From contig OZ287075.1 in NCBI GenBank assembly GCA_965645245.1, forward strand, positions 1,240,001-1,304,000: a stretch of 64,000 bases of DNA, written 5' to 3'. The stretch comes from Massalongia carnosa. Taxonomy: Eukaryota. The notes under the pieces are model-generated. The model did no database searches, was not told the origin of the DNA, and saw nothing but the letters and a program-made list of their open reading frames with translations. Below are positions 21,441 through 43,900 of the stretch, piece by piece (within the stretch, counting starts at the first letter, position 1; each line of letters opens with the position of its first letter). The translations under genes were made by a program, and so were the position numbers.

Positions 21441-21869
21441 TCACCAGAAAAAAACCGGTCTTATTGCGATTTTTCGACATTTTGACGTCTTGCCTTTTCG
21501 TTTGACACGGGCTATTTCTTCGAAAGAATTCAAGTAGAATTTGTATAGAAAGTTTCCTGAAATTCCTGTTCGTTGTAAAGTTCATGTGGGGCAATCTGAT
21601 TGCACTTCGCATATAAATCGAGAATCGACTTAACGAAAATAACAAACTGTATGTAAAACTGCTCTGCACGTTATAAACATAAATAAAGATTGAAATTTAT
21701 AACGAAAAAATAAAAAATACATTGATTATGATTATATAAAGCGACGAAGTTACAAACATGAAAACAATAAAGTTGTGACGTTGTTCTGTGAGGTCGATAT
21801 CGTTCTTGTCATGATCTGTTGAAATAGGTATGTGACTATGGCTATATGAAAAATGGTATGTATGACCGT

Positions 21870-22117
21870 TGTAAGAACCACTATCCAGGGAAGACGAATA
21901 GTAGTCAGCTACTTAAGAGACTAAGCATGAAGAAGAGAAATCTATCTACAAAGAACAATGTGAAATCTATATGCCCCGTTTGCCCTTCTTCTCGAAGTTT
22001 CCATCCGGCTCTAGAAGCTTATCTCCGAAGCTTCGGTCGGAAAGAGCCGTTGGATTTAGCGCTCCCACACCCGAGTCCTGATAACCGTGATGTTAAGGAT
22101 GAAGCGTGCCCATAACA
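21870..22117 (-). mobile_element. Probable LTR relic
   Basis: Minus strand reads TGTTATGGG...GGTTCTTACA with an LTR-like size. No TSD. Confidence 0.4.
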
Positions 22118-22303
22118 CCCTCTGCTAAGCGAGGTGATAATATTATCTGAGCCGATCTTATCTAATCTATAGGCTAAGCCTAATACGGCATCTACGGTTT
22201 CTGTAGGTGCTCTGTCCATCTTGGGCAGTCGTGGGTTCTATGTTCATTGAACTGGTAGGTGTTCACTGTACTGGTAGGAGTTGAATATTCAACATGATCG
22301 TTA

Positions 22304-25300
22304 ACGTAACCCACCACTACTTTAAACACCAGAATATGTAAATACCCTCATCGTCATCATCAATGACAGCGACAATAATGATGAATTAAATAAATCTGAA
22401 TAGCCTCGTCGCTCGAAAACAGTCTGATCATCACCCGAGAGTAATTACATCCCCCACCCCCCTTCCATTACCATCTGAAAAACCTCGTCGTCGAACTTCA
22501 GCTCTCAAGATTTATGTCTTCATAAATCAGGACTTCCCTCCCTCACCACCGGCCTGATAAAATAAGGCGCGTTCAAACTCGACCCGTAAAGACTCGGAGA
22601 TGCTTCCAAAGAACGAGCTTGCGGGGTAGGCGAACCCCATACAAAATTCAACTGTGTTTGGGTGAAATCCCAGGTAAACTCCATCTGACTTTGAGAGGTA
22701 AATGGAGCATTTGTAGGGAAATTACCTCGTCTTCTTTTCGATGGCCCTTGATTTAACATCTTCAACCTCTTTCCCTCCTCCTTCTGCATGGCCTTTGCCA
22801 CTCGTTCACGCTTACGTTCAGCCTTCAGTTCATCCTCTTTCTCTTTCTTCTCAGCCTGAGCGGCCAAGCGTTTGATCCTCTCATCTTTCTTTCTTTCAGC
22901 CTCCTTCTTCTTTTCAGCAGCGTTCACCTTTCTAGTCTCAACGGCCTCCTTTCTCAGACGAGTGACCTCTGCTTTCTCCTCCTCTTCTATACGATATGCC
23001 TCGGCCTGAGCCTCGGTGAGAACACGTCCGAAAGCGCTACCATAAGTAGCCCTTTCCCCTGCCTCTTTTATCTTTTTCTTTCTCTCCTCCTTGGCCAGAT
23101 TCGCTTTGAATAATGACTGAGTAGAGTCTTGAAGAAGTGTTCGATCTGCGAAGGCGATAGCGGTTGCTCTTTTGAGACGCCGAAGCCGGTCTTGATGTGA
23201 TTTGGGTATGAACATTTCCAATGAATTCAACATAGCAGAGTAATCGCGCTTGTTAGAAAGAGTTCTATCGAAAGAATTGTTCGAAAATTAACTGTTGATG
23301 AAGGTGGAGATGGAGATGAAGGTGGAAGTCAAGGGAAATACGATTGAACTCGAAGGGGCCGAAGGAACCGATTGAAGAAATTGAGGTAATTTCTCAATTA
23401 CTCGCTGCAGGTCAAAAGGATAAATACCTGAACTTGTTAGCAAAACATTAAGAAAAGAATGTTACTTTACTCACCAGTTGCAGCCCAAGCTGACATGATT
23501 ACATCGGAAGTCACGACCGTTTCCCTTGCCCTCTTTAGAAACTTCAGGTAATCCAATTTATTCACGTACACCTCTCCGAATTTATTTCGCTCCTCTAGCT
23601 GTTTTTTGTATGCTTTGTCCAGAGGTCCGAAACATCCTACGTCCAAAGGCTGTAGAAAATGAGTAATATGAGGTGGAAGACAAAGCGGAACTATATCCAC
23701 TGACCAGCAGTACTCGATAAAATCAACAGAGACATGAGACGCATGCCCGTTAATTAGAAGAAGTCGTCGGCCTCCCAAATGAATTGTCTGAGGATTGAAA
23801 CACTCTCTCACTCAGGTCAGTCCAGTCAGTCCAGCCATTCTTGCTAACGGCAAAGGTTGCCTCAGGAAATTCCCCCTTCCAGGCTTTTACTATTCGTTTA
23901 TCTTCGAAGATAATCATGGGCTTGAACACGTATCCTCGAGTAGAAACGAACTCTATGCAGGTGCTCCATTTCCTGTCTCCAGAATGAACGAAAAAGGCGT
24001 TTTTGTCGCATCGTCGCACGATGACCTTCTACAAAATAATAATAATTTTAGCGTAAACATCAAGCCTTAAAACGATGAGGCTTAAAACTTTAGATCAAGA
24101 TTAAAATTTTCAACCAATCGATGATCTGAATGTAGCCCCGCTCATGCTTATTAACCGTAAAACATCTCGTCTCAGATATTTTCTAACCGAAAGTGACTTA
24201 GCTAAAAATATGATCACTTACCGAATATTTCCCGCAACTCCCATCAGATGTCCCTTTTCATCCGTGTTATAAACATCACCTGTCGCAATGCCATACTTGT
24301 CTATTGTTCTTCGAACAATCGAGAACCGAACACTTTGCGATCAGTGTTCCAGTGTCGTTCCTGATCCAAGTGACGAGGAAATCGAGAACGATAGTCCGGA
24401 TATCGATCAAGAAAGCGCTTCGTCCAATTAATTCCCAAAGATGCAGGAGATTCAACGCGAAGTCTCAACAACTTCATGGCCTTTTCACGAACCATATCAA
24501 AGCGAGCGGGAAAACCCAAAGCAGTGCTCGAATCAATGTAATTAAGAATGGATTGCTCCTCGCTGTCATTTAAAAGGCGACGAGTCAGACCATACTCCGC
24601 GGCATTTCGACTTCCTTTCATTCGACGGGCCACAGTTCCCCTGTTGACCCCGTAAATAAGAGCGACTTCGTTCGCTGTTTTTATTTTGCTCTTTGCAGCT
24701 ATGACAGCTAAACCTACACGATCTCCTCTGAAAAGCGGCGCAATCACCCGCCTAGCCAAAGGCGATGACATAGGCGAGAAAGATAGGGAAGAACATATCG
24801 AGTTCATGCGAGGTGGAGAGGGCGATGATGCATAAAAAGCCTCCAACTGTTCTTTCACTTCTCCGCGGATTTATTTGCGCACATGGTCCATGGTCATGTC
24901 CGGTACGCGTGCGAGACCTGTCCAATAGCCCTCCCGTTCTAAGACCTGAAAATATGCCAGTTGACGCAGTAGATCAAGCTCCTTGTCGGGATCATTATCC
25001 TTCAAAGCGGCCTTGAGCTCCGTGTTCAATTGTCGATGCACTCGCTCTCTCCACTCCTTAACAGATATACCATCTACAAAAGGTTCTTCGACAAGCTCTT
25101 CGAACTGTCGTCGGATGACGACGGCCTGAAACACCGGATTGATTGAACGTTGCGGGAGGGGGGGGGAAGAATAAAACAATGAATGATGACTGGTATCGAG
25201 AGTCTCGGAGACCTCGACAAGATCAGAGCATGGAACCTGTACGTTCTCCTGATTGGAAGAGATAGAAGGGCGCGCGCCGGATAGGAATTGTTCAATTGAA

Positions 25301-25845
25301 CTAGCCATGTCGAAAGGTCTTTGAAGAGGCAGGAAAAAGATGAAAGACTGTCCAGAAATTCGACAATTATACGACTATTTTACATACAAAAGACAACGAA
25401 GATTGGAAGAAATATCCGATGAAAAAAGAGCTTTTATGTTCATTTGAGCCTCTGATGATTTCTACTGGGCCTCTGATAATTCCAACCCCTTTGATTTTGA
25501 TCTTGTTTGTAGCTAATCGAACTACTTTCATTCAAAATCACACTCGTCATCTCACTATAATTAATACTGTCGATCATGAAGCTATTACGAAGAGATTTTT
25601 CGCCTGGGGAGACTCGGAAGGCATGGGGAAGTCGGATCAAAAAGGGTGGTTGGTTTGGGCTCTGGGCGACCAATTGAAGCAATTCCTTCGGTCCGGGGTT
25701 AGATTAATGGCTGAATAAGTGGCGCCTTTAGTTAGATTCATGAAGTTATTCATATCGACGACGTTGCAGCTGGCGACAGCAAGGTAAATGAAGCAATTCT
25801 GGTGTTTAAAGTAGTGGTGGGTGACGAACTAGTGGTGGGTTACGT
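22304..25845 (-). mobile_element. Fot1-like (pogo) DNA transposon, 3.5 kb, defective transposase (about 22520-25308)
   Basis: TA-flanked TIRs acgtaacccaccactac...tttaaacaccagaat / attctggtgtttaaagtagtggtggg...gtggtgggttacgt. Motifs: HTH (YGVNRGTVARR), GINWTKRFLDRYP, VYNTDEKG, SKNGWTD, LINGHASH, LPPHITHFLQPLDVGCF. Contains stops, frameshifts and two apparent introns. Confidence 0.92.
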
Positions 25846-28183: not shown

Positions 28184-28720
28184 ATGTTCGCAGCAACAGA
28201 TGTGTGGAATTGTTGCAATTGTCAAGCCCCCAACCTCATCGCAAACTCTCTAGAGCGTTGCCCCGTATGTGATCATCGCCGCTGCCCATATTGCACAATC
28301 GGGGCCCCGCCAGCCGACATCGGCTCACCCAGCCCGCTGCTTCCGCCCTCTCGTTACAGCTATGCGACATCCTCAAACCAGTACACCTCCCATCAGGGGC
28401 TTCGCCCACAAAACTCATACACACCCCCCTCTGCCCCACCCCGTCATGCTTCCATCTTTGCCGGCAGGGCCCCTCCACCGCGCGGAAGCCCTCGCAGCAG
28501 CACCAACGCTCCAGCACCTCCGCCCCCCTTATATGCCTCGCGCCTTTCTTATCCGGTTGCAAGCTCTCCGAGCTACGGAACGCCCATGCATAACTCGCCG
28601 TCAATGAAGGGATGGTGGTACTGCTGTGAGGACGGCCATTTCAATAACCCAGTTCTCAGTCCGTTAAAGTGCGGCAACGACGGGCACCTCAAATGCTCCC
28701 AGTGCAAGGTTCTACTATAG
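28184..28720 (+). CDS. Cys-rich protein A (178 aa): two WxCC zinc-ribbon-like modules joined by a Pro/Ser-rich linker
   Basis: WNCCNC-x12-CPVCDHRRCPYC at the N-terminus and WYCCED-x12-CGNDGHLKCSQC at the C-terminus. Good start context (atcATG) after a pyrimidine-rich leader. Confidence 0.85.
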   Translation: MFAATDVWNCCNCQAPNLIANSLERCPVCDHRRCPYCTIGAPPADIGSPSPLLPPSRYSYATSSNQYTSHQGLRPQNSYTPPSAPPRHASIFAGRAPPPRGSPRSSTNAPAPPPPLYASRLSYPVASSPSYGTPMHNSPSMKGWWYCCEDGHFNNPVLSPLKCGNDGHLKCSQCKVLL

Positions 28721-30683
28721 ATAAAGAAACGGAGAGTTAAGAAATGGAGTTTTACGGGAGTTTGCGAAAGTGGGCGGATGGCGGGGTGGGGCGGAGCGGA
28801 GCGGGGTTGGGTTGGATCTTTCAACATTCATTTCTCTTCTTCCTTTCTTATTCCTCTTATTAAGTCTTCTTTTTGTTCTTTCATATTTCTTCGTCTTCTA
28901 ATTTGTCTTTCTCTATCCTTTCATTTTTCAACTCCTCCTGCTTTGCTTTTCTTCCTTACTCTCAGCACTCTTGTCATTCGTTCACGGCAAGGATTAGTAT
29001 TCCACTCAACATAGACTGCGTCATCATTGACCCCCCCAGGCAATCACGTTGGCGTTGGCGATATGTTTCACTTTGTATTATCATCTCTTTTTTGTGTTTT
29101 CACCTGTTTTTTGGGGGTTTATTGGCTACAGGTTTAGACTTAGAACGAGCATTTACGACCAGGGGTTTAGAGCACAGCACAAAAGATAGATTGAATGACA
29201 ATAGATTTCCTAAGCGTATGCATGAGATTTTCTCGGGACTTGCGTAATTTCTTCATGATGTCAATTCCTGTTCTTCTAAATTTTTTTTTGAAAAGATAAC
29301 TAATTAGGTCGTTTCTTCTCTCTCTGATACCGGGTTCTGGACCATTTCATACTCTTGGACCTTGATTTACCGCTTTTTCAATCTACATCATGGTTTTCTT
29401 ATTCCTGGATTACGTACGCTTCCCATCGAGCTTGTCTCTTTCACATCTTTCACATCCCCTCCTTCCGTTCCATCCTCTTCTCGATTTCTTCTTTTTTCCA
29501 TTCATTGGCTGGCTGGCTTCCTTCTTCAACTCAAGTCCTCACCTCGTCCCCCATATCCCCTGTGTAATAAATTCACCGAACCCCGCCCTTTCCCGCCATG
29601 CATACTCTCTATTTACCTGAACGGACTCCCCATAACTTTCTTCCCACCCTACCCTATCTACCCTTCGTAGCTTCGTCTCTATCTCCAGCCTAAGAAATAA
29701 GAAGGCAAGCAAGTGGCGAAATTTTGGGTTGTTGTTGGCATCGATCGATATGGGTCAAACTTGGTCTTAAACCTGGTTTTTACAGCCAAGCGTTTCTGGT
29801 TTCCAGGTATCCACGTTCCGGTTTCTCCTGATGTGGGGAGGGTGGCAGCATGTAAGGCCTACGAAAGAAAGAGGGGGAGGACATATCCCGCTGCTGCTTA
29901 CATGGATATCGGGGCCAAGACGATATCACCATGCGGTTGTCTTGATTTTTGTGAGGGGTTAGAGAAGGGTCAAAGGATAAGAGGGAAGAGAATGAAGGAG
30001 TGAGACGATGAGAAAACCAGATAGGAGGGAACGAAGGGAACGAAAAGCCGCATAGCTTGCATGTTGTATTTGTATGCGCATGTGTATGAGGGATGGGAAG
30101 GAGAGAAGAAAAGGAACTGGAGCCGCCGGGTAGGATTCTGTCCTATCATATCCTCGCTTCTCTTCTAACTGTCCTGTCTGTTAGGGGTTAGGGAAGTTGC
30201 ACTATCTAGCTAGCTAACTAGTTAGTTAGGTAAATAGATAAGTATCTGTCTCTATATCTATCTGGAAAGCAAGCAAGCAGCAAGAAAAAGAAGAACCAAA
30301 ATAGGGGGATGGATGGATGGATGAATGGACAAATAGATAAATGGATGCCTCTTCCTCCTTCCTCATTGTGCAGAAATTCATCGACCCCTTCCAGGTATGG
30401 CCAGTCTCATTTTCCGCGGGAGCCGAGTACCCTTATCCTCCACAACAACCCCCGATACGGGGCCTTCCCACCTAGCCTACAAGCAAGCTCAAGCAAGACC
30501 ATTCCATAAAATTCTCCCACCAGAAATCGTCATTAGGTACGTAGTTAAAAAGCGAACCATCTCCGCCCCACTCCTCCCTGACCCCCCTAAAAATAAACTT
30601 GAATCAGCTAGCCAGCTAGCTAGCCAAATCAATAGAAGAGGTTCTAAGGATCGTACGAAAAGGGAAAAGGGGCTGGGTAAGTA

Positions 30684-33600
30684 CCGTATTATCTGGCAAA
30701 TAAGACTCTAGTCTTATAGGGGGGTGATCAACCCGAGGGTCATTTGGAACGGGGTCTTATAAGCATGGGGGTCTTATAAACAGGTATGATCTTATGAGGG
30801 AGTGGAAAAAACGAAGACGCGCATCAAGTTTGGCCAGCGTTGGAGGTATCCCAGTTACGTATCACTTCATCATTTTATCCACCTTTATCATCTTTTCATT
30901 GCTTTATTTCATGGCTCCCTCGCACGTCCAGAATCCTATGCAGGCTCAAAACCAGCCTCGTCCTGGGCCTAATTCAAAGTCCACCAGTCTTCGCAGCTTG
31001 CATTCAGCCCGACTTCCCAAGAAAGCGTTTATGCAGCCTTCAATTCCTAGCATGCCCGGTTGTTCCAATGATAATGCTTCTATCATTAAACAATATCGTC
31101 TGCATCGAGAGGTGGGCGATCATCCTACACTTCGCGATATTTCTGACGACGAATATGATGCTCCTCGACATCGAGTATCCTACACCAGAGAGCAGAAAAT
31201 AGCTGCTATTAGCTATGCTCAAACTACCTGGAAGTCTCAGAAAGATGGAAGTATGAAGCTTATCAGTAAATATGCTGCAGCCAACAATCTTGGAATTACT
31301 ACCACGATGCTTAGAAAGTGGATTGAAAGTAGTTCGAGTATCGCCGCTCAACCTAAAGGTAAACGAAAAGACAGCAAAGCTATGGGTATATGTAAAGAGC
31401 CTGAGCTTAAAAGGCGACTTTTGGAGTTATTCATGGAAGCCCGTAACACTGGACGTAAAATCAATAAACGTTGGTTTATTCGTCAGGGTCGTCAGGTGTA
31501 TGGTCAATTATATCCTCATCGAGTGACTAAGGCATCCGGAAGAATGACTGAGTATGCCGAGTTCAAATTCTCTAATGGTTGGTTTCGTGGATTCAGACGA
31601 AGATGTGGTATAGCTGTCAGAAATCCTACCAAAAAAGCTCAGCAGGTGAATAATCAAATGTTTATTTTTTTGAACTAGAAGATTTCCCGAGGAAATGCCG
31701 CGCCCGGCGAAATGCCGCACTTTACAATTCGGCATTAGAATATTGTTTTCGTCGTTAATCAACTACAACGATTAATGGAATGTGTATTAAAAATAGTATA
31801 AATAGAAAGTATATACACGATATCCGACCCTAAAAACCTTACATAGCAAAACGCCCTGGGCGCTGGACCCTTCTTCCAGTCGAGGTAGTTAAAACCACCT
31901 CCTCTACCTCTTTAGCGATAATAACACGAGTAGGCGGCTTTACCTTCTTCTTTCGAGTCTTTTGAACTTTATTTGACCCTGTATACTGCTTCTGCTGCCC
32001 GAGCTGTCCCTTAGGATATCTGTTTGCTGCTTTACGTAACTCCTTCTGAGCCTGCTTCTCAGAGGCCTTTGCTACCTTTGCTTCTGCAGTCAATCGCCGC
32101 TTCTCTAGAGCGATTGCTACCTTTTCTAGCTTCTCCTCTTCTTTCTGTAACCTTTTAGCAGTAGCTTGTCGTCGCTTCTCGCTAATATCTAGCTGGCGTT
32201 GTGCTTCTTCTTCCTCTTTTGCTGCTTGAAATTCCCTGGCAGCCTGTACTCGCCTAGGACTAAAGAATTGAGGGCCTGAGTCCTCTTCCCCAACTAAATT
32301 AAGCCGTTTACCTCTCTTCCTCCTCTTCTTTTCGTCCTGAAGGGTATTGCAGAGCCCTTTGATCACGTGTTTGTTGATAGAGTCCTGGGCAGCAAGGCGT
32401 TCGTTAGCCCGGAAGATCTTTGCTAGTAATAACTTCGTAGGCGCAATATCGTACGCTCGCTGCGTACGGCGAATAGCACGGCTTGTCATTGGTATTTTTG
32501 GCGACTGAGAAGGAGCCTCGATTATCTGTGGTATGATAACATTTAGTATAAGGCTCGGATTGTAAGGCCAAATACCTGTTTTTTCGAAGGCAGAAGTAAG
32601 TTTTTCCCCCGAAAATGCCTGCTGCCATGCAGGGAAGAAAACGCTCCAAAAGTCTCTTTTTGACATGTTTATCATGCCTAGACTATCGAACATTAGTCTA
32701 TTCAGCCCATTGGTATAGAGCGTTGCTAACGGCGCGAATAGAGAAACGTCCAGAGACTGTAAACGATGCGTAGAGTGCGAAGGTAGAATCAGGAGAAGAA
32801 TACGTAAGTTATCGCATTTATCGATAAACTTAAGATTCACGTGGCTAGAATGACCGTCTACTATCAGTAAACGTCTTCTATTTCTAGCCTTTTGCTTCGT
32901 ATAACGCTGAAAAACCTGCTCTAGCCAATTCAGGCCAAGGATATCACAACTCCATCCTTTCGCCGATACTGCAAAGAACGCCTCGTCATTAGGATTTACA
33001 TCCTAAACCCATGTATCCTGGAGTATGCCAGAGTCGCCTTTATAGATCAAGGCAGGAGGTAAAGCGGTTCCGTCGGCCCCGATACAAGCAAGGAGGTTGA
33101 TAAACTCCCTATTCCCGTCCTGGCTTGCATGTGTGATCCGCCCTGATTCGAGGGCCTCTAGCGACATGATACGTTGCGTGGCGCTTGCTTGGCCAATCAC
33201 AAAGCCCTTTTCGTCCCAGTTGTAAAGGTTTTCCCCTGTGATATTGTATTTTTCGACACCGGCGATTAGCTAATAGAAACATTAGTTATTTTCGATCATA
33301 ATTAATATTCAACAAATAGGAATGGGTAGTTAACACGCTACCAAATCGTAGAATTGCTTAAATAAAGACGGATACTCAGATTTTATACGCTGGCTATCCA
33401 TATTTCGAAGATAAAGACTTTTAAGCCTATCCTTGTATCGGCGGACAAAATCCCCTGTCCAGTTCTTCCCTACAGGCCCTCCTATCACCTCCTCCGCTAG
33501 GTTTTGTACAATTCTGGCGGTTGGGGGCAGTCCACGATCGACAAGGCGATTGATTTGCTGAATTAAGGCCTATTCCTGGGCCAAGGTAAGTCGTTGCTTG

Positions 33601-35184
33601 TATTTTGACGCGGCTGCCTTTTCGGACACCGTTTGGCCTTTCCAGCGCCTCCGGAGGGTACTTTCGACTAGGCTAAACCTTTTAGCTGTACCCCTGAGGT
33701 TAGGCTGATCTTGCTGATTCAGATCAGCAATTGCGAGCTCGATACGAGCGTTGAGGGTGGATTTATTCATGTTTGCAAGTAATGGTTGGAAAGTGAGAAG
33801 ATGCGGCATTTCGTCGGGTGCGGCATTTCCTCGGGAAATCTTCTAACGGCATTCGGTTCATATCAGATTCCCGAGAACTTTCGCGATATTATCCAGTTGT
33901 GGTTACAATTTAATCGTCGCAATTCTCAACCGCTTTTGGGTCAAATTCCTTTGCATGGAGGAGGAAGATTTCGTCTTTGCGATATCGGCAATATGGATCA
34001 GACTCCTATTGCTTACGAGTTCCTGCAGGGTCAATGCTACGATTTTAAAGGTGCCAAAACTGTATGGATTAAAACCCATCGGTCTGGAGGGGACAAAAGA
34101 CAAGTCACTTTGATGATTTATGTTTCTGCTGACGGCATTAATCTATGCAAACCTCTTCTCATAGTTATAGGCCAAGATAGCACAAAATGCAGTCGAATCA
34201 AGACGCAGTACGACTCGGGAGTAGTAGTTCAATGGGATCCAAAAGCCTACGGCAATGGAAAAGTCATGTGTCGATGGCTAAAATAGCAGTATAAATACGC
34301 TACTCTAGGACTTCATAACGCTAATACACGGCGTTTTCTATCATTAGATGTGTTTGCGGGACAAAAAACCGAAGAGGTAAATAACTGAGCATTTTGTTTT
34401 CAAGCTGCACATGTTTGCTAACAAATTTTAGGTTAAACAAGCCTTTAAAGATTTAAACGTCACAGCATCATTTATTCCTTCCGGCTGCACCGGGTTTATT
34501 CAAGTTCTAGACGTCGCCATTAATAAACCTTTGGAGAATCGAATATCGGAGCTAGCCGACATTCATTACGATGAGCACTTCGAGAAATGGAATAAAGGCT
34601 CATACACGGTGGGTGATCGACGAATTATGCTAACAAAATGGGTGGGACAAGCGTGGAGGGAAATGCACTTGGAGCATTCTTCTTTGATTTGTCAAACCTT
34701 TCGAAAGTTGGGATTGTCTCTTGCTGTAGAAGGGTCGGAGGATGATGAGTTGTCAGTTAAAGACATACCAGGCATAACGGTAGGCGATTGGAAGCTTTCT
34801 ACCGGTCAGGAGGATATACAAGAGGTAGAGGAGCCTGATACAACTGATAATAGCGAGGAGGTGCAGAAGGATGACGAAACTGAAGGCGTCATTGAGGTTA
34901 GGGAGTATGTTTTGAGTGATGAATCTGGGGCCGTTTTTAAATAGCGATACTGAGATGGATGTTGATGACGATTGATTTGCAGGGGATTTTTACTGATACT
35001 TAGAGAATTTTTACTACTGTTTTGCACAAAATTGCCCTGTTGATGATTTTTCATTTCAAAATCTCGAAATTATGGTCTTATACTGCAGGACCCCCCCTAT
35101 TTTCGGAAATAAGCAATTTGAACGGGGTCTTATATCCGGGAGGGTCTTACCCAAAAGCAGGGTCTTATTTGCCAGATAATACGG
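30684..35184 (+). mobile_element. pogo-family DNA transposon (outer), transposase about 30911-34944 with two introns and one premature stop
   Basis: TA-flanked TIRs ccgtattatctggcaaataagac / gtcttatttgccagataatacgg. Motifs FKFSNGWFRGFRRR, IGNMDQTP, DKRQVTL, LSLDVFAGQKT and IPSGCTGFIQVLDVAINKP. Introns 31646-33866 (contains the nested element) and 34377-34431. TAG at 34284-34286. Confidence 0.93.
31678..33843 (-). mobile_element. Fot1-like DNA transposon (inner, 2166 bp), transposase with two premature stops
   Basis: TA-flanked TIRs gaagatttcccgaggaaatgccgc / gcggcatttcctcgggaaatcttc. Motifs ESTLRRRWKG, YNWDEKGF, DGNREFI, VDGHSSH and LPSHSTHRLQSLD. Intron 33270-33341. Stops at 33570-33572 and 33003-33005. 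Confidence 0.95.
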
Positions 35185-35760
35185 TATTGCTTAAATTTGT
35201 CGCGGAGGGAAGAATGGATGGATGGAGGGATAAGAAGCAAGGGAATCGAGAGAAGGAAAAGGAAAAGGAAAAGGAAAAGCAGAAGCCCCCTTTTGTCCCA
35301 CCCGGCCCCGCCCATTCGACTCGTCTCTACCCTTTACCATCTCCCCTCCCTCCCTCCATTCTCTCGCCCAGCACCTTCCCTTCCTACCTATGCCCTAATA
35401 TCGCCTGACCAGCAAACCGGGCAAACAGAACCTTGCTGGAAACCCTGACGCGCAAACCGGCGATCTAGATACATACATGCATACTAAAGTAAAGTGAAGC
35501 AAACATGTAAACCGATTGATGTTTACCCACTCCTCCTTTTTACTGGGGGGGATAGATGGATTGGTAGGGGGGGGAGAGGGAGAGGTAGGTAGATAGGAAT
35601 GGATAAGGGGGGGGCGGGGGAAGGTGGAGAGGTGGGTGGTGTAAGATAAAGAAGAAATGAATGACGGTAACCATGTAGGTAAATAGATGAAGAGAAGAAA
35701 ACGGTTAATTGAGAGAATCCTCAAACTCCAAAAGATCAGCATGGCCAAATGATCTACTAC

Positions 35761-37650
35761 CTACCGCACCACGCCATTCCTCTCCGTCAATACAATCCCT
35801 TTACCGCCGCCGCCGTTACTGCTGCCCCCCGACTCCCCCTCTCCGACCCACGACCCATCGTCTTCGGACCTAACTCGCTTGGTCCGACTGCCTTCCTCTC
35901 GCCTTGAGCGTCTGCGTCGCTTCCGTCTTGCAAAACCATCCACCCCTTTCTCCCCTTTGGGACTTTCTATCCCCTCTTCACGGCTTGGAGCGGGCGCTAA
36001 CCCAGCCTCGACGCGCATCCGCTGCACCACGGGCCCGAGTGCGAACTGGCTCTCGCCCCGATCGTGCTGACAGCAAGGGCTATGCGTAAGGGGGATAAAC
36101 CACTCGTACCAGCGCTCGCCCATGACGGACTTGAAGTTTGCAAAGGCACCCAAATCCCAAGGGTTTTCGCCTGGTTTACTGTGCAGGATTGCAAAGGTCC
36201 TTGGCTGGGGGTTTGGGTTTTGAGAAGGAGAAGAAGGGGATACTAATGGGTATGAGATTATGGGGAAGGGAGGGGAGGCCAAGGGTCGCGGAATATATAT
36301 TGCTAACTGCCAGACTTTGTTGCGGCGACTTAGGTTCTCGATGGTGGTTGTGTTGAGGATGACGAATTGAAGGGAACTCCCTGTTAACCCAATTGTGAAC
36401 GGGGCGAAGAATGCAGCGCTGCAAAAGTCGTAGTTAGTGGATTTGAAGCTAATTGGAGAAAGCGAATGGTAGACACCCACAAAGTGATTGTGACGATATG
36501 ATGATGATTGGTCTAGATGTAAAAAATATGTTAGCCTTGCAGGGACACAAGATGTCGGATTAAGCTTTTGTCTTGATGAAACGGAGCCGCATCCTTGCGT
36601 GGAAGGCTCGTTGGGAACAGGGATTGGATTCCTGGGTATAGAGAGGCAGATCGATGGGACGATCCCCAGGGCGTAACGAATTAGTGATAATTACAGGCGC
36701 GGAAAATCGCTTACCTTCTTTTTCAGCTCCGAGATAACAACTCCCATGATGATTAAGACGAAAATGCAGTATAGCGCGGTCCAGGCTACGAATTGGAGAA
36801 AGAACTTAAACGATGTTTCGGAGATAACACCCCCCACCCTATTTGTGATTTAACAAGGTCAGCCTTTTCACTCTTACAAAGGGCCCAGTAGACATTTCAA
36901 CCCAAGCAGACAGCGCTAGATGTTGAATTACTCACCAAGGACAGAAATGATCCATCTTTCGTACGCAACGACCTACCTCGCGGCAATGATGAGCTCTGTC
37001 GGGCTTCCAATTCAAACAATAGGAACACCATATAGGCTTTCCATTCCCTTCGCATGTAAATACTTCCTTGCCGAAAAACTCCCGCAGATCTGGCGAGGCA
37101 TCATCTGCCGGGAGAGGTCTTGTAGTTGGGGTCCCAGATTTTGTAGAGTCGCTGCCATACGCAAAGCCTTGAAGACTACTGCCATCCCAATTGCTATCTC
37201 GCACCACCTGGCCGGGCTTTTCTACTGAGGCGGGGTCTCTTGATCTTTCTTTGCCCCAGCCAAGGGTCTTCCGCTTACCGCTCTTCTCAGAACGTTCATA
37301 ATACTGAGGGCCTCTCAGAACGTAGCCAGGATTCAATATAACCGTCGAAATCAATCGGAGGTATGATATGGACATGAAAAACAGCAGGAAAGTATATATA
37401 ACAATAACCGCAACGGCCGTTCTATTGCGCGGTTTGTGCAGCAAAACTGGAGGTCGAAGGAAATAATCCACTGTTTGCTTCAAATCAGCAGAAGATTTTC
37501 CATGTAGATGTTCAATGACTGACCGCAAACCACCACAATCACGATATACGTCACATAACCTACGATCGCGGCCAGGCAGGTAGGTATTATACGGGCGGTA
37601 ATGCGGTTGACCAGCTTCTGGTTAACCCCAGCTTTGGTCGGAGGGGCCAT
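35761..37650 (-). CDS. PFA5: DHHC-type palmitoyltransferase (PFA5-like), multi-exon
   Basis: [45 protein letters not shown] (DHFC variant typical of filamentous-fungal Pfa5), plus NTTTIENL and GENPWDLG. Introns 37471-37523, 36839-36935, about 36512-36714 and about 36419-36480; the last two are less certain. Confidence 0.9.
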
Positions 37651-39146
37651 CAATCCGTCCTCCGTTATGACTGAGCCTTCAAAATGTGGTGCAATATCAA
37701 GAAACACATAATCATCCGTGCTTTCGATGAGGAACTTTGTAAGATGAGAAGGGTATGGGAAAGTAGGTAATTTAGGCGAAAGCAGGAGATGAATCTGGAA
37801 CAGCCTTGTAAGGCGAAGAGATGACACTAGTTGAAACGAACCACGCTAGAGTTTCTTACAATGTAACAAACTCGTGACGTGTTGATCTCGAACGTGAGCC
37901 TCATGTCCCCTTCCCTCAAAAACCCTCTTCCTTTCATCTCTCACCCCATTTGCCATCGTTCATATGCGATTTCAATCAAGCGGGTCTTAGCATCCCATTG
38001 ACACGCCCAGTCCCATCGTTGCACTGCCTCTAGTGTATCTCTAAGCCCAGGGAGAAAGACGTTCTGTTTCCTTGTCCGCCGGGCTCTCATAGCCTTACGT
38101 TCTGAGGCCCCTAAGGCTTACTCGCCTCTTTGCTTCGCCATCCCTAATGTAAAGCCCCATACTATCAGATGATATCGGGCATCTTCATTAGAGAGCGACC
38201 TTAAAAATTATCATGGAAGTAGTGCTCTCTCTACGAAAGCCTAGCCACAAATCCGTCGCAGAGGAGGGCAATGGTCATGAAAAGGCGGACGTACGTATAC
38301 CCATGCTCATCATCTTCGAGTGATGCTGACACTGTTTAATTGAGTGCTGAAGCCCTAGGGGGTTGTACCTGAGCCCCAACAATGAGAAAGAGAACCCTAA
38401 CTACCTTCCTGGGCAACATGTAGCGTGGACTCTGGCCGCTCGTGCGACCTCTCTAATCTCAAGAACAGGAATAGGTGCTTACTTGGTCCTCCCACCATGG
38501 ACTACACTTTATGGTTAGGTATTTAACTATTTGCTTAGTCACGCCTCCTGGTAGGAGTCCTTCTGACATCCTCGTTTGCTTTGGTATCATGCTTCTTCGT
38601 CTCTCTTATTGGAACATATCGGCTAGGAGTAATCAGTTTATTCATCTTTTTTGGAAAATATTGAGGAGAGCAAGGATATGTCCTGCTTGGAAGTAACTAG
38701 AGGGTTGTTCCTTGGACCCATCCTCCCGTGATCCCATTTTTAATCACGTTTGCCTCAATCCGTTATCTTGTTTTCTTCTATTGACATTGCCTTAAATGAA
38801 CCAACACAATGTGTGTCATATTATGCCCTGCACAGCTTTGTATAGAATCTTTACACCTAATATTATTGGAAGCCCTTGACATCCTTCTTAGTGTAACCCT
38901 ACAGCCGGTGTCACGGTTGTTGTGGTTATTCGCCCTTTTGTGGCTTGGCGAGGCCTTGAAAAATGAAGCCCCGTCTCATGGATACATCATAAATATCCTA
39001 TATCTTATTATCATGCCCATGAGGAGGGTTGTTTCTCGACATTATTTGGTATTGTTGACACTTCGCACACCACTGAACTACTGTATAACGCATAACTTGC
39101 CTCTTACTATCCAGCGTCAATTCGATAACCTCATTGGAGCACCGCT

Positions 39147-39741
39147 ATGGCTGAAGTAAGTACTCATATTCAAACTTGTCTTAAGCTTTGCTTACAATGA
39201 GAAGGATCGCCCGCACACTGGCGCTATGCAAGTCAACGGCATGACGCGAAACAATTCTCCAGTCTACTTTTTCTATCCTCCAGATCCTTCTGGAAGAAGA
39301 CCGAGTGAGCGAACCCTTCTTCAATATGCGAGCCCAGCAGAACGGGCAGCCGATCAAGGTCGTGGTGGAGACCAACAATACCAGCAAAATATTTCTCCAC
39401 GGTTAAACTCGACGTCGCAGCCTAGGCTTTCCCAGCAGAACCAACATTCAGCTTTGGACCTGACACCCACCTCGTCTCGCCGTCATGCTGGGGAATCGTA
39501 TGAAAACTCTGGTAATGCTGGGGGGAACAGCTCATTGTCAAGAAGTAACAACAGCGGCCATCATTCTCGAACCGAGCCACAAAGCATAGAATACTGGCGT
39601 TGTTGCCAACCGGGATGCGGCCAAGTGGGCCGGTACATTTCCAGGATACATGTTACGTGCATCGCAGGCTGCCGCAGACCGAGGTGTCTCCAATGTTCTT
39701 CTGAAACGGAGATTTTCCGGGATTACCCACCCCCATGGTGA
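39147..39741 (+). CDS. Cys-rich protein B: disordered N-terminus plus a C-terminal WxCC module
   Basis: ATG GCT GAA | intron 39156-39204 (gtaagt...cttac...aag) | joins in frame to the 39226 ORF. Module: WRCCQPGC-x13-CIAGCRRPRCLQC. Confidence 0.75.
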
Positions 39742-41232
39742 AGCATTGTACCTGTAGGCATGGTGTTGGTTTGGCTATGGGCCAATGACCTTTATTGGAG
39801 CAACAGGGGCTTCTCAACATAAATTTGCAGTATCTTTGATTCTCACAAGCCTTTGTCCTTCTCTGCGATATTGGACGAAGACCCTCTGAAGACATTCTCA
39901 TGTAGTCCATTTTTTTGAAATGCACAACTGTTGTATCACTAGCTTCAATTGCTTTTAGCGATTTCTTTAGTCAAAGATATATGTTTCAAGGTTCTGTAGG
40001 AGTAGGTTAAGATCTTGCCAAGCATGGTAAGTTAAGTAGGAAAAAAGGCGTATTCTCAGCTAGTCACATTATCACCCAGAATCGGCTATGTTTCTTCAAC
40101 CATTGGAGCTGTTCAAGCTGTTCAAACTGTGCCGCGATCACGAATTTCGAGGCTGAGGAAGCGGTTTAGAATATAGCAATTTCGACCAAGCCTCCTGGGG
40201 TCCATACAGTGTGAGCTAAGTTTCTGGAGTAGGAACCTGCTCTTAATTCATGTGCAACTAATCTGTTATAGCATTACATGCTCAGATTTACGTTTAAACT
40301 ATGGTAACACCAAAAATGGATGGTTTCTGATCTCCAAATCTCTTCACGCAGGATTTGGCAAAGCTAAAGACCGAAGATCCGCCAGAGTGTGATTCCAAGT
40401 CGATGTTACATACTCAACTTCGCCCGCTCCGGCATGGCCTTTGGTAGTTGGGCCTATTTTTCTCACAAGCAGCTTACCCGTACTGAGAGAAAGCTAGTGA
40501 TCGACCTCGTTGCAAATCGTTGATCCGCGAATGAAGATGCCTCGAAGACTCTTTCAGCATCAGATCATGGACTAGGTCTCTAATTTTCTCCATAGGTGGG
40601 TATAGGATTAACATGCATGTCACTCAAGCATGCATCAGATCCTTTTTTTTTCCGAACTGGATTGGAATCGTTACATTGTTCCTTTGCATGTTCCCTACGA
40701 GTAAGCTTTTCACACACCACCCTTGATCCTATCACCATTCATACGGGGAGTTTCTTCTTCGCATGAAGATTATGTGTCATCCACCTACCCTATGCTTGCT
40801 TTACGCGCGGATGCAAAGGATAACCAGCTTCATGCAACGTCGATCCTCAGAATGCTTTTAACTGAACGGCACTAGTGGCTCTGAAGAAGTTTGTATGACC
40901 ATCTCAGCCATATCACGAGAGCTATACCCGCCATTCACTGGTTTTCCATCTCCGGTGATTTCTACACCGCGTCTATCCTGGGTCCTCAGGGTGCGACCTT
41001 GCTAGTTGCTAATTGCCTTTCGCTGTGCCGATTAGTTGTAAAATATTTCACGAGATTCGTCATGCCCAATGTGTCTCCCTGTCATCATGCAATGTTTTGC
41101 GACACACATTGATTGGTCTGGCTTATGAAGTCGTTACGGCAATTTTTAGAGAGAGGAAACCTTTGGGGCGAGGACCTTGTCTCATAATCTACCATCCTTC
41201 GCCTTCGCCTTTGTACTAATATGCTCTCAACT

Positions 41233-41240
41233 TATATAAG
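41233..41240 (+). promoter_or_regulatory. TATA-like box of Cys-rich gene C
   Basis: TATATAAG 115 bp upstream of the ATG at 41348. Confidence 0.45.
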
Positions 41241-41347
41241 TTCTCAGTGTTCCAGACCGATGAATTTCTTCTGTATAAATTGTATTCTCTGGTAGCCCTT
41301 CAATTGATTTTCTATCAGTTTACCATTAATTTACCATTACAGCCAAC

Positions 41348-41894
41348 ATGTCTTCTCCCAGTTTTTGGTATTGTGGATTTTGCAGGTATGGCCCAATGAC
41401 CCTTGCCATTGTCGACCATTGCGTTATTTGCTTTCGTCAACGAGATTTCTATGCTACATACGAAACAACCAAGTCGTCTTCCATTGGCAAACAGCCAGCT
41501 ATAATGCTTCTACCTGCGGCATCTTTGGACACTCCTCAAGTCGACTCCTTACCAGCAAGAGCCTCAAAGCTTGATAGACCATCAGCCACTATGGACTATC
41601 AGTGTGGAATAATTTATGGGAACAAGTCATATCACCATCGACATCATTCCGTACACCCCTCCTCACCAAGACAAGACATTGATCAGCAGACGATTTCTGA
41701 TCAACCTGTCATTCCCACAAAGTGGTTTTGTTGTCAATGTGTGCAACTCCCCCCCCCCCCCCCAATAGTATATATGATTCGCGAAGCTGATAGTCTAAGG
41801 TAATGACGGTCCAAAGTACATAACAACCGAAGCCAAATGTGTTAATGGTAATTGCGGCCATGTGAAATGCAACAACTGCTGCACAGATCCCTAA
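41348..41894 (+). CDS. Cys-rich protein C (161 aa): N-terminal WYCGxC module and C-terminal WFCC module
   Basis: Intron 41739-41799 (gtgtgc...gctgat...aag) splits a Cys codon. Splicing completes WFCCQC-NDGPKYITTEAK-CVNGNCGHVKCNNCC. N-module: WYCGFC-RYGPMTLAIVDH-CVICFRQRDFYA. Confidence 0.85.
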
Positions 41895-43519
41895 AAAAAG
41901 TATGTGAACCTAATTTAGGTTACCAGTCTCTACTGTTGCTGACCTGAAACGCAGAAGAGGTCGCTCCCGCAGCCCTTCTCTCCGCAGCTCGATATCGCCG
42001 CTATTTGAAATGCGTTCCTTACATCTATGAAACTTGATTGTTTACGCTTAAATGGTCGTTATAGCTTGGATAGTTCCGTTTTGAGACTTGGCTTTTTGTT
42101 TCTCGTTACTTTTGCGGCAACGAACTTGTTTCGGCCTCTACAAACTGCATGAAATTATCCTGTATCATTACGGAGTTGGAGTGGGATATAGATCTTAAAC
42201 TACTCGTATCTTTAGTCTACGCAAGCTGTTTAGCTATTCCTTTTTGGTGTTCCTGTGTAATCTCTATGTATGCGACGATGACACAAAGCATCTACGCACA
42301 AGTTAACTGCTTTTATTTTCCGGTCATATTATGCATTAAACATGGGGTGTTCCACGGGCTATTGAAGCATTCCTCGCTGGGGGGCTGAACTAGCTGGATT
42401 TGCTGCAAAACTTAGATCCTCTCCCATTGAAGACGGTGCAAAATAATCTCCTGTCGCTCCCAAAAGTAGAAGGATGCAAGCTCCTGACTGGCGCCCTTCG
42501 TTGCAGGGCCTACATCGACCACTCGTTTACCCTGCAGCGGCATCGAGGAAAATACTGGCATAGGCAGGGCTGAGTAGTGTGTCGGTTTGCAGATTCCTTC
42601 TCAAGGCTAAGCGCTTATTCTTCTAGAAAACAAATGACTCGGCTTTATTCCGCGCCTCACCGTACTTTGAGGAGCGGGTAAAATACCCAAGAAATAGGAT
42701 TCCCGATAATTCCACGTGGCATGATCCCAAAACGAGGCTGCATCGGCTTCATCGTGCGTCTGTTAACCGGGAAACCTGCAGTACCGAGAAGCTTCCTCAC
42801 TCCTGAAATCGGTATCGCAGGATCTTGGGACATGGCGGTTTTTTCTTACCCTGGCACACGGCGCTGCTGCTGCTGCTGCTGCTAGATAGATTCACAGTTT
42901 CGCTCGGGCTCCAATGTTATGGATGCTGAGGACTCGGGATGTCCGCATGCAATTTTCCATCGCTCGCCACCAGGATCCCACTTCACCTTACGGGACCAAA
43001 CACACCAGGCCACCCAGGGCGCATTTTCCTTCCGACCCTGCCACAACGACAAAGTCGCAAAACGAGTTCGTGTCTTCCCCGCTAGCTCTAAACTGGCGCG
43101 GATCGTGGGCGAAGTTGCCCATCCTCATCATCATCATCATCATCACCATCACGCACGACCGCCTCCCCTTTTTCATTGAGTCATTTCCAGGATAGGGGCC
43201 TCTCCGAAAGGCCTTGGGAGCATGGCACTAAACTAGCTGGCCTGAATGGCTTCGCCAGGAAAGCGAAGCCTCCCCCTCTTTTCGCAAAACCATGTGCTCC
43301 TATCTCTCATAGGCCCTTTGTTTTCGACAAATCGGGAAATCAAATTCGTGGCTATGGGCTTGGATTGTGGAAACGGCACGCTGTTGAATCCTCCTTCCCC
43401 CAAATCTGGTGGCCGAAAGGAGAGGACGTCATTCCTCACGTCCTGAGTTTTAGGGAATACAAGGGAAGACTCATCATTTCATGCCTGATTTTTGTAGAGG
43501 CGAACTTTTGCTAGAAGGG

Positions 43520-43526
43520 TATAAAA
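43520..43526 (+). promoter_or_regulatory. TATA box of Cys-rich gene D
   Basis: TATAAAA followed by a C/T-rich leader to the ATG at 43748. Confidence 0.5.
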
Positions 43527-43747
43527 GCCCCACTCCCTCTCATGTACAAATCTCAACAAATATCACACGTTTACCTTCAATCATCCATCTCACATTGCCC
43601 ATTTGTCGTCTCTAATTCTCACTTCTCCTCCTGTCCAATCCATTCAGACGCATCCTCCTCATCCAATTACACCCACTCTTCACCTTATCATTTCGCCCAC
43701 CTCACCATTCTAGCTCATTCGTTTACCTCCATAAACACTCGAAGAAA

Positions 43748-43900
43748 ATGGATAATCTCCCAGTTAAGCCGAGATGGTACTGCGGGCACTGCCAAATGGG
43801 CCCCATGTCTTCTAAGTTCGACAAGCACTGCATGTTCTGCTATCGCAAGAAAGACTCCCTCGCTACAGTCGATCAATCCCCACCACCTCAGAAACGCTAG
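43748..43900 (+). CDS. Cys-rich micro-protein D (50 aa), single WYCGxC module
   Basis: MDNLPVKPRWYCGHCQMGPMSSKFDKHCMFCYRKKDSLATVDQSPPPQKR*. Colinear with the N-module of protein C, with strong aaaATGg context. It is below the ORF-track length cutoff. Confidence 0.85.
   Translation: MDNLPVKPRWYCGHCQMGPMSSKFDKHCMFCYRKKDSLATVDQSPPPQKR

What the first reader, a model, noticed from the sequence alone, without database searches (positions are those of the whole stretch)
28184..43900. Cluster of four co-oriented genes encoding six copies of a Cys-rich zinc-ribbon-like module
Seen: genes at 28184, 39147, 41348 and 43748, all on +, share W-x-C-(C/G)-x-C-x12-C-x2-4-C-x-(H/R)-x2-(C/D)-x2-(C/A). The spacer is exactly 12 residues in five of six copies, with GP(M/K) in three. 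Architectures vary: N+C, C only, N+C, N only. Linkers are unrelated low-complexity sequence, there are no signal peptides, and each gene sits in long non-coding flanks. DNA similarity is not evident, so the duplications are old. Established: the WxCxxC...CxxC core resembles RanBP2/NZF zinc ribbons. Inference: an ancient, diversified tandem family of small intracellular metal-binding adaptors at a fixed locus near PFA5 and SQT1, of unknown function.
Basis: partly seen in the sequence, partly recalled or inferred. Interest (0 to 1): 0.78.

Follow-up and report, generated by a model that had tools for sequence, protein, structure and literature searches.

The report
Conserved fungal zinc-ribbon adaptor gene cluster
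Four small neighbouring genes in this fungus carry an undescribed metal-binding module; the same four genes sit in the same order in a distant fungus, and the module also turns up glued to large proteins, so it probably works as a docking unit in an unknown fungal signalling pathway.

Summary
Six Cys-rich modules in four + strand genes are real, fold confidently (pLDDT 94-98) and belong to a widespread ascomycete family (267 representatives) with no curated family here. The cluster is not an uninterrupted tandem array: a DHHC gene and pogo remnants split gene 1 from genes 2-4. But the order g1 - DHHC - g2 - g3 - g4 - WD40 recurs, gene for gene, in a second fungus with only 65% identity in the WD40 gene. 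The module is a rubredoxin/NZF-like Cys4 ribbon plus an inferred second Cys3His site that one subfamily lost. It fails the RanBP2 signature and is closest to the rubrerythrin C-terminal domain (E 6e-5). New here: the module is mobile, heading or ending large modular proteins, two of them with NLR-associated domains; and one conspecific allele of the 50-residue gene 4 differs at 7 residues while all cysteines stay. Best reading: intracellular protein-docking adaptors (0.45); a role in fungal non-self signalling is open (0.2). No binding or expression shown.

The parts
28184..28720 (+). g1: 178-aa intronless gene, N module + Ser/Pro-rich disordered linker + C module (type A)
   Evidence: 1:1 counterpart in L079
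28205..28294 (+). g1 N module, all eight ligand positions (C C C C C H C C)
   Evidence: pLDDT 94-95
28616..28705 (+). g1 C module, Asp at ligand positions 3 and 5
   Evidence: pLDDT 96-98; same double Asp in 5 of 205 library modules
30794..34944 (.). pogo/Tc5 transposase remnants between g1 and the DHHC gene; absent at this place in the second lineage
   Evidence: HTH_Tnp_Tc5 E 3e-4, DDE_1 E 1e-17; gap about 1.4 kb in L079 against 7.0 kb here
35761..37621 (-). DHHC palmitoyltransferase gene (PFA5-like), inside the cluster; ends are those of the open frames
   Evidence: DHHC E 1e-11; same place and strand in L073, L074, L076, L079, L083
39147..39741 (+). g2: three-codon first exon, intron 39156-39204 (or -39201), conserved N-terminal motif ending in RRPS, linker, divergent C module
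   Evidence: same short exon, intron and motif in L079; splicing inferred
39595..39696 (+). g2 C module (13-residue spacer, Arg at the His position)
41348..41894 (+). g3: 161 aa after removing intron 41739-41799; one-site (type B) N module + linker + two-site C module
   Evidence: intron place supported by homologues that read through or run off at the same codon; splicing inferred
41366..41455 (+). g3 N module, type B: four Cys kept, second site replaced by G, R, D, A
41723..41879 (+). g3 C module, interrupted by the intron
43520..43527 (+). TATA box 228 nt before the g4 start; one lies 195 nt before the counterpart in L079
43748..43900 (+). g4: 50-aa module-only microprotein (type B); carries the allele divergence hot spot 43774-43878
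   Evidence: 56-aa counterpart in L079 and a similar ORF end in P0119
47209..48693 (-). WD40 gene (SQT1-like), right border of the conserved block
   Evidence: WD40 E 4e-32; 65% identical counterpart at the same place in L073, L074, L076, L079

Best explanation
The locus is the old home of a family of small intracellular adaptors built from a 30-residue metal-binding docking module. Shown by computation: each module folds on its own as a rubredoxin/NZF-like Cys4 ribbon; the linker is disordered; N and C modules are distinct subtypes that stay in their places across species. Inferred: most modules bind a second Zn through Cys2, His6, Cys7, Cys8; the type-B subfamily lost that site. Inferred mechanism: each subtype docks on its own partner protein, so two-module proteins (g1, g3) tether two partners, g2 couples one module to a phosphorylatable peptide motif, and the module-only g4 competes for the partner of the type-B module, which large modular proteins also carry in 1-3 copies at their N-terminus. 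The partners are not identified.
For: Confident independent folds, pTM 0.30-0.34; best structural neighbours are NZF/RanBP2/rubredoxin ribbons, e.g. NPL4 NZF Z 2.9, rmsd 1.7 over 31 residues. Second-site ligands are kept or lost together: 0 kept in 44 and 2 kept in 6 of 205 modules, against 3 and 64 expected. Nearest neighbour of a module has the same N/C position in 79 of 102 cases; within-protein N-C identity 0.33 against 0.61 to the best module of another protein. Four 1:1 counterparts in the same order in a second fungus, where g3 keeps only the C module and g4 only the N module. Module fused in single open frames to 340-1060-aa proteins (P0009, P0055, P0128/P0166, P0136, P0140, P0150) and, in this genome, at the head of a broken P0166 homologue and at the tail of a SesA-like/ULD_2 gene. 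No catalytic domain, no signal peptide.
Against: No partner or binding shown. Structural scores are all weak (Z at most 3.1; no Foldseek E below 0.001). The second site rests on co-loss that is about one evolutionary event (45 of 47 one-site modules in one clade, 3 changes on the tree); model coordinates could not be measured. The metal is not determined, and the closest sequence relative is an iron site. Fusions are few (6 of 148 proteins examined) and their partners mixed (one has PHD and C2H2 fingers). Single-chain models show no N-C contact.
Confidence: 0.45

Rival explanations
1. A narrower form of the best reading: the module is a folded, non-amyloid coupling domain of fungal NLR-type non-self signalling; g1 and g3 are bipartite adaptors and g4 a module-only decoy under diversifying selection.
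For: The module ends a gene with a SesA-like N-terminus and ULD_2, the slot where HeLo/SesA effectors carry their signalling motifs (PMC3321046, PMC9815663, passages). The domain behind the two modules of P0136 is, in this genome, the tail of a NACHT-ANK-TPR gene (27% identity, E 3e-16). One conspecific allele of g4 holds 9 of 45 differences of a 5901-nt stretch, 8 of them nonsynonymous (7 residues), no Cys touched; scan p 0.0006, or 0.003 with doublets merged.
Against: No NACHT or NB-ARC protein carrying the module was found. The cluster holds no NLR and is stable between housekeeping genes. SesA match is below the cut-off (19 against 26 bits); 3 of 4 ULD_2 loci found have no module within the 3 kb examined. 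The g4 burst is one allele pair; in the second lineage g4 varies no more than its flanks (0.0185 against 0.0180 per nt; the search pattern would have missed such alleles). Sparing of the invariant residues alone has p 0.08.
Confidence: 0.2
2. The Cys4 site holds iron as in rubredoxin, and the proteins are small electron carriers or redox/metal sensors for desiccation and oxidative stress.
For: Type-A profile hits the rubrerythrin C-terminal domain at E 5.8e-5 with the same 12-residue spacer and the AP-x2-C-P-x-C-x-H ending; RUBY_RBDX is the commonest sub-threshold Pfam match, 11 of 39 members, against 2 of 39 for RanBP; top Foldseek row is a rubredoxin (E 0.82).
Against: All Pfam matches are below cut-off; no ferritin-like di-iron domain or reductase lies in the cluster; g1-C replaces two of the four Cys by Asp; a Cys3His second site suits Zn (established coordination chemistry); N-terminal arrays on large proteins fit docking better than electron transfer.
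Confidence: 0.15
3. They are NZF/RanBP2-like readers of ubiquitin chains, Ran or single-stranded RNA with altered specificity, acting as post-transcriptional or trafficking regulators.
For: Same core fold; conserved Trp and, in 100 of 205 modules, Asn four residues after the third ligand; TAB2/3 NZF hits at E 0.02-0.2; terminal placement like NZF domains (PMC12383448, passages).
Against: Spacer after the Asn is 8, not 6; TF is not among the ten commonest pairs after the third ligand; 84 of 205 modules have Pro in place of the Asn.
Confidence: 0.12
4. Metallothionein-like metal buffers.
For: Small, Cys-rich, intracellular; TATA boxes before g3 and g4 in both lineages.
Against: Fixed folded domains with conserved non-ligand surface residues, long metal-free linkers, loss of ligands in one subfamily, and fusion to large proteins; low metal capacity per residue.
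Confidence: 0.06
5. Some or all ORFs (above all g2 and g4) are decayed copies without function.
For: g2 has a frameshift in 1 of 5 second-lineage records compared with L079; g4 shows many amino-acid changes in one allele; several dispersed copies in the second lineage lack the start Met.
Against: ORFs, motifs, intron and order are kept in a lineage whose non-coding DNA no longer aligns; g3 has 0 nonsynonymous and 1 synonymous difference in the second allele.
Confidence: 0.03

Closest known systems
Rubrerythrin C-terminal rubredoxin-like domain (Pfam PF21349 RUBY_RBDX; PDB 9fj2)
   Same: W-x-C-x2-C-x12-C-x2-C-x-H spacing; best sequence hit (E 5.8e-5) and among the best structural rows (Z 3.0, rmsd 2.6 over 41)
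   Different: Eukaryotic, stand-alone or paired modules, four extra ligands, no di-iron domain; all Pfam scores below cut-off
RanBP2/NZF zinc fingers (PF00641; NPL4, TAB2, NUP153, RBM5)
   Same: Two-knuckle Cys4 ribbon with leading Trp; Asn in type A; some members are auto-named 'RanBP2-type domain-containing'
   Different: Spacer two residues longer, no TF pair, C-terminal extension with a predicted second site
Pfam PF26652 Zn_ribbon_double ('probable double zinc ribbon', ascomycete)
   Same: Listed by the Atlas as a lead (0.79 and 0.76); a three-repeat gene on contig C8 shares the C-x2-C-x-H-x2-C-x2-C half
   Different: Model not in the local Pfam, so membership is untested; the top Atlas clusters for g1 and g3 carry no common Pfam family; probably a sister family (inference)
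Fungal amyloid signalling motifs of NLR/effector pairs (HET-s PFD, sigma, PP)
   Same: Short module at the C-terminus of a SesA-like effector and at the N-terminus of large modular proteins
   Different: Folded metal site, not a G/N/Q-rich amyloid; not found on an NLR; not encoded beside one in the cluster
Death-fold adaptors and decoys of animals (ASC, FADD; POP/COP) - recalled
   Same: Two-module adaptors plus module-only microproteins, with copies on large proteins
   Different: No homology; architecture only

Membership tests
RanBP2/NZF zinc finger | Signature W-X-C-X(2,4)-C-X3-N-X6-C-X2-C (PMC12383448, passage) | tested here: not met
   Spacer between the knuckles is 12 (X3-N-X8) in 5 of 6 window modules and in 134 of 159 spacers counted; Asn present in g1 only
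RanBP2/NZF zinc finger | Pfam PF00641 at or above cut-off | tested here: not met
   No match for window proteins; 2 of 39 type-A members match weakly, best E 5e-4
RanBP2/NZF zinc finger | Two-knuckle Cys4 ribbon fold | tested here: inconclusive
   rmsd 1.7-1.9 over 30-31 residues to NPL4 and RBM5 fingers but Z below 3.1
NZF ubiquitin-binding subfamily | TF pair after the second Cys of the first knuckle (PMC12383448, passage) | tested here: not met
   Absent from the six window modules; not among the ten commonest pairs in 205 modules
Rubrerythrin rubredoxin-like domain | C-x2-C-x12-C-x2-C spacing with leading aromatic residue | tested here: met
Rubrerythrin rubredoxin-like domain | PF21349 at cut-off; fusion to a ferritin-like di-iron domain | tested here: not met
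   Best 22.6 bits against 26.5; no such domain in window proteins or the 28 long homologues scanned
Rubrerythrin rubredoxin-like domain | Binds one redox-active Fe | not testable with these tools
   needs metal analysis
PF26652 Zn_ribbon_double | Score above the family cut-off | not testable with these tools
   Model absent from the local library; Atlas lead only
Fungal NLR/effector signalling module | Same motif at an effector C-terminus and an NLR N-terminus | tested here: inconclusive
   Effector side seen once, SesA below cut-off; no NLR N-terminus among the 148 proteins examined, but the library is made of unspliced ORFs and only 150 of 267 hits were listed
Fungal NLR/effector signalling module | Effector and NLR genes adjacent | tested here: not met
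   No NACHT or NB-ARC match among the 19 window ORFs scanned; a module fragment on C21 lies 1.6 kb from an NB-ARC-like gene but inside a transposon nest
Metallothionein | Cys clusters throughout a short unstructured chain, metal induction | tested here: inconclusive
   Fold and architecture disagree; induction not testable here

The most novel reading that the evidence does not exclude
The module is a folded, metal-based homotypic coupling domain of fungal innate immunity or allorecognition, a counterpart of amyloid motifs and of animal death folds. The conserved cluster supplies bipartite adaptors (g1, g3) and a module-only decoy (g4) whose surface diversifies between individuals, and dispersed effectors or receptors plug in through terminal copies of the module.
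Probability: 0.2. Interest if true: 0.85.

Novelty: new variant of a known kind. Interest (0 to 1): 0.58.

Why it matters
The family is widespread in filamentous ascomycetes (named members from Paracoccidioides, Periconia, Trematosphaeria and Massarina) yet only auto-named, and I found no paper on it. A four-gene block kept in order while its non-coding DNA diverged beyond alignment points to a real pathway. Fungal NLR signalling is known to couple through fused effectors or amyloid motifs; a folded adaptor layer would be new, and a polymorphic 50-residue gene would give a direct handle on self/non-self recognition in lichen-type fungi. If that fails, it is still a tidy case of a zinc ribbon gaining and losing a second metal site.

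Tried and rejected
Pfam, NCBIfam and Rfam gave nothing above cut-off for the window modules or the stretch 26000-49500. Word-based homologue searches were nearly blind (2, 0 and 6 hits). No RNA holder listed: no statement on expression. Fold searches: no significant match in PDB or viral libraries; IBR domains share the C-x2-C-x-H-x2-C-x2-C spacing (L041 looks like one, name recalled) but were not listed. Conserved non-coding elements between the two lineages: none above shuffled controls. Gene conversion of the g4 allele from g3: only 3 of 9 changed bases match g3; no close donor found in this genome, though the genome of run X4 was not searched. Wider synteny: no WD40-gene relative in viral contigs; the 4 prokaryotic pattern matches lack the second knuckle; 6 of 29 metagenome matches likewise; Paracoccidioides neighbours not found in main texts (supplements not searched and may hold them); contig lengths of 30 homologues gave no shared contig. 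The W-x-C-C-x-C pattern alone is too noisy (226 matches against 77 in the control; 3 of the 30 inspected looked like modules). P0145 looked ankyrin-like by eye but Pfam did not confirm it. P0109 and P0025 are probably small proteins with over-long 5' calls and were not counted as fusions. One search included the window's g1 and six near-duplicates; one search is the clean count.


Full report
1. Observation. The window is G000:C9:1240001-1304000 of a 52-Mb eukaryotic genome; a lichen metagenome holds near-identical DNA. In register they read W-x-C1-C2-x-C3-x12-C4-x2-C5-x-H6-x2-C7-x2-C8. g1 (28184-28720) has two, g2 (39147-39741) one divergent C-terminal copy, g3 (41348-41894) two, g4 (43748-43900) one. 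The g3 C module needs an intron at 41739-41799 (GTGTGC donor, AAG acceptor). Among type-B homologues two read through an in-frame intron at that codon and six run off there, while others are continuous; splicing itself is inferred. Against chance: 42-46 bits for four unspliced modules, at most 7.5 bits in the reversed window (g1's modules were part of that profile and g2 did not reach 8 bits). g1 is separated from g2 by pogo remnants and a DHHC gene.

2. Family. A seven-module profile found 267 representatives at E up to 0.001 among 1.84 billion; 150 were listed. After dropping three own-species copies and adding P0003, 148 proteins held 205 canonically spaced modules in 143 proteins. The typical member is about 170 aa: module, Ser/Pro-rich linker, module. 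Of 30 looked up, named ones come from Periconia, Trematosphaeria, Massarina and Paracoccidioides, as hypothetical or 'RanBP2-type' proteins. No local Pfam or NCBIfam family passes cut-off. The Atlas gives ascomycete clusters without a common Pfam family (0.91 for g1, with weak recognition) and PF26652 as a lead. Subtypes: type A (g1-like), type B (g3/g4-like N module, W-x-C-G-x-C-x2-G-P), and others.

3. Structure. AlphaFold2 folds both modules of g1 at pLDDT 94-98 and both of the type-B protein P0004 at 89-98, with disordered linkers and pTM 0.30-0.34. Structural neighbours are NZF/RanBP2 fingers, rubredoxins and ribosomal ribbons, all weak (Z at most 3.1). C2, H6, C7 and C8 are lost together while C1, C3, C4, C5 stay (0 ligands in 44 modules against 3 expected; 2 in 6 against 64; some of the one-ligand class are misregistered by indels). 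I read this as a ribbon site plus a second Cys3His site. The caveat is real: 45 of 47 one-site modules form one clade, 3 changes on the tree, so this is about one event. By sequence the nearest solved relative is the rubredoxin-like domain of rubrerythrin (E 5.8e-5), not RanBP2, whose signature has a 6-residue gap after the Asn and whose ubiquitin-binding branch needs TF (PMC12383448, passages). Zn against Fe is open.

4. Conserved linkage. A type-B pattern scan of metagenome contigs gave 29 loci: 6 chance matches, 17 dispersed paralogues in three groups without DHHC or WD40 neighbours, and 6 loci of the syntenic block, all 23 from one set of records, which I count as one lineage. In L073, L074, L076 and L079 the order and strands are g1(+), DHHC(-), g2(+), g3(+), g4(+), WD40(-), as in the window; L083 and L081 show parts. 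The WD40 protein is 65% identical, the DHHC pieces 41% and 60%, and intergenic DNA does not align. Each window gene scores best with its positional counterpart (293, 259, 110, 111; g3 also scores 109 with the g4 counterpart through its N module). g2 keeps its three-codon first exon and an N-terminal motif ending in RRPS (a protein kinase A consensus, recalled). g4 is module-only in both lineages; the second lineage's g3 has lost the N module, so there the two halves are on separate genes. Breadth beyond this one lineage is untested.

5. Mobility. Six of the 148 proteins are long single frames with 1-3 N-terminal modules, five of them type B (P0009, P0055, P0128 with its relative P0166, P0136, P0140; P0150 is two-site). 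In this genome a broken homologue of P0166 on C4 (55% identical) is headed by a degenerate type-B module. On C9, 257 kb from the cluster, a full module ends a gene with a SesA-like start (19 bits, cut-off 26) and a ULD_2 domain (35 bits, cut-off 24.5); an open spliced frame joins them; the other 3 of 4 ULD_2 loci found show no module. The domain behind the modules of P0136 matches the tail of a NACHT-ANK-TPR gene on C19, behind an in-frame stop. A fragment of the g1 C module on C21 sits between MULE and retrotransposon remnants 1.6 kb from an NB-ARC-like gene; I give that little weight. SesA and HeLo effectors carry their coupling motifs at the C-terminus, NLRs at the N-terminus (PMC3321046 and PMC9815663, passages); 'zinc' does not occur in either main text. 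No NLR carrying the module was found.

6. Variation. Run X4 differs from the window at 45 of 5901 sites (40 listed). Nine lie in the 153 nt of g4: R9S, Y11I, H14Q, Q16K, M17K, F30Y, S44F and one silent change; g3 has one silent change, g2 four nonsynonymous and three silent. Scan p is 0.0006 (0.003 with doublets merged). Nonsynonymous changes exceed the neutral expectation whether flanks (0.76 expected) or silent sites (2.4 expected, p 0.003) set the rate. Transversions are 7 of 9 against 7 of 31 outside. Runs X3 and X5 carry the window's allele. Against: one allele pair; pN/pS within g4 (0.066/0.035) rests on one silent site; no such excess in the second lineage (2 nonsynonymous, 0 silent, same rate as flanks), where my pattern fixed the very residues that change in X4.

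7. How it most likely works. Shown: real conserved ORFs, independent folded modules on a disordered tether, position-specific subtypes, module-only members, terminal fusions. Inferred: Zn binding, a second site, docking on proteins, tethering by two-module members and competition by g4 (0.45). The immune or allorecognition version is bolder (0.2): it explains the fusions and the allele burst, but the cluster's stability between housekeeping genes and the lack of a module-bearing NLR speak against it. Iron/redox (0.15), NZF-like reading of ubiquitin or RNA (0.12), metal buffering (0.06) and decay (0.03) remain.

8. Novelty. The fold is known and members are in the databases under automatic names; a Pfam sister family exists that I could not test. 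Searches for the family, PF26652, the PFA5/SQT1 pair and zinc ribbons with fungal NLRs returned no paper on it (listings only); the library lacks most subscription journals and supplements were not searched. Verdict: new variant of a known kind, interest 0.58.

Noticed in passing
window 3577-7908 (-): 1443-aa ORF with degenerate Thr/Ala/Gln-rich repeats, a long coiled coil and a likely C-terminal membrane segment; no Pfam family at cut-off, no counterpart in the 29 metagenome loci.
   Followed up: no
window 11655-12624, 20495-25374: More pogo/Tc5 transposase remnants (HTH_Tnp_Tc5 E 5e-16 and 3e-6) left of the cluster.
   Followed up: partly
L037, L038, L049, L052, L053, L031 (contigs C1, C2, C9, C12): Tiny ORFs with a shorter-spacer (8-10) version of the two-site module; L052 and L053 lie 2.5 kb apart. 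A wider microprotein family in this genome.
   Followed up: partly
L044-L046, G000:C8:1442163-1442696 (-): Gene with three C-H-x-C type double-ribbon repeats, probably the PF26652 type (assignment recalled, untested).
   Followed up: partly
L079:8040-8087: The intron in the g3 C module lies in the second Cys codon here but in the third in the window and in P0021/P0058: a two-codon shift or independent gain.
   Followed up: partly
L074, g2 counterpart: A short deletion shifts the frame and stops g2 early in one record; null allele or assembly error.
   Followed up: no
L059, L061, L064 groups: The second lineage has three dispersed copies of the g4-type module; several lack the start Met and two groups share upstream sequence, like captured or decaying duplicates.
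   Followed up: partly
P0099, P0164, P0165: Annotated Paracoccidioides type-A proteins end just before the C module, at the conserved P-x-M-R-G motif; true truncation or a gene-model error.
   Followed up: no
L079:13000-14700: Polymorphism peak (up to 76 sites per 500 nt) between g4 and the WD40 gene in the second lineage.
   Followed up: no
P0002 against g1: The only two internal differences in this near-identical g1 allele (D30E, Y36S) both fall in the N module.
   Followed up: partly
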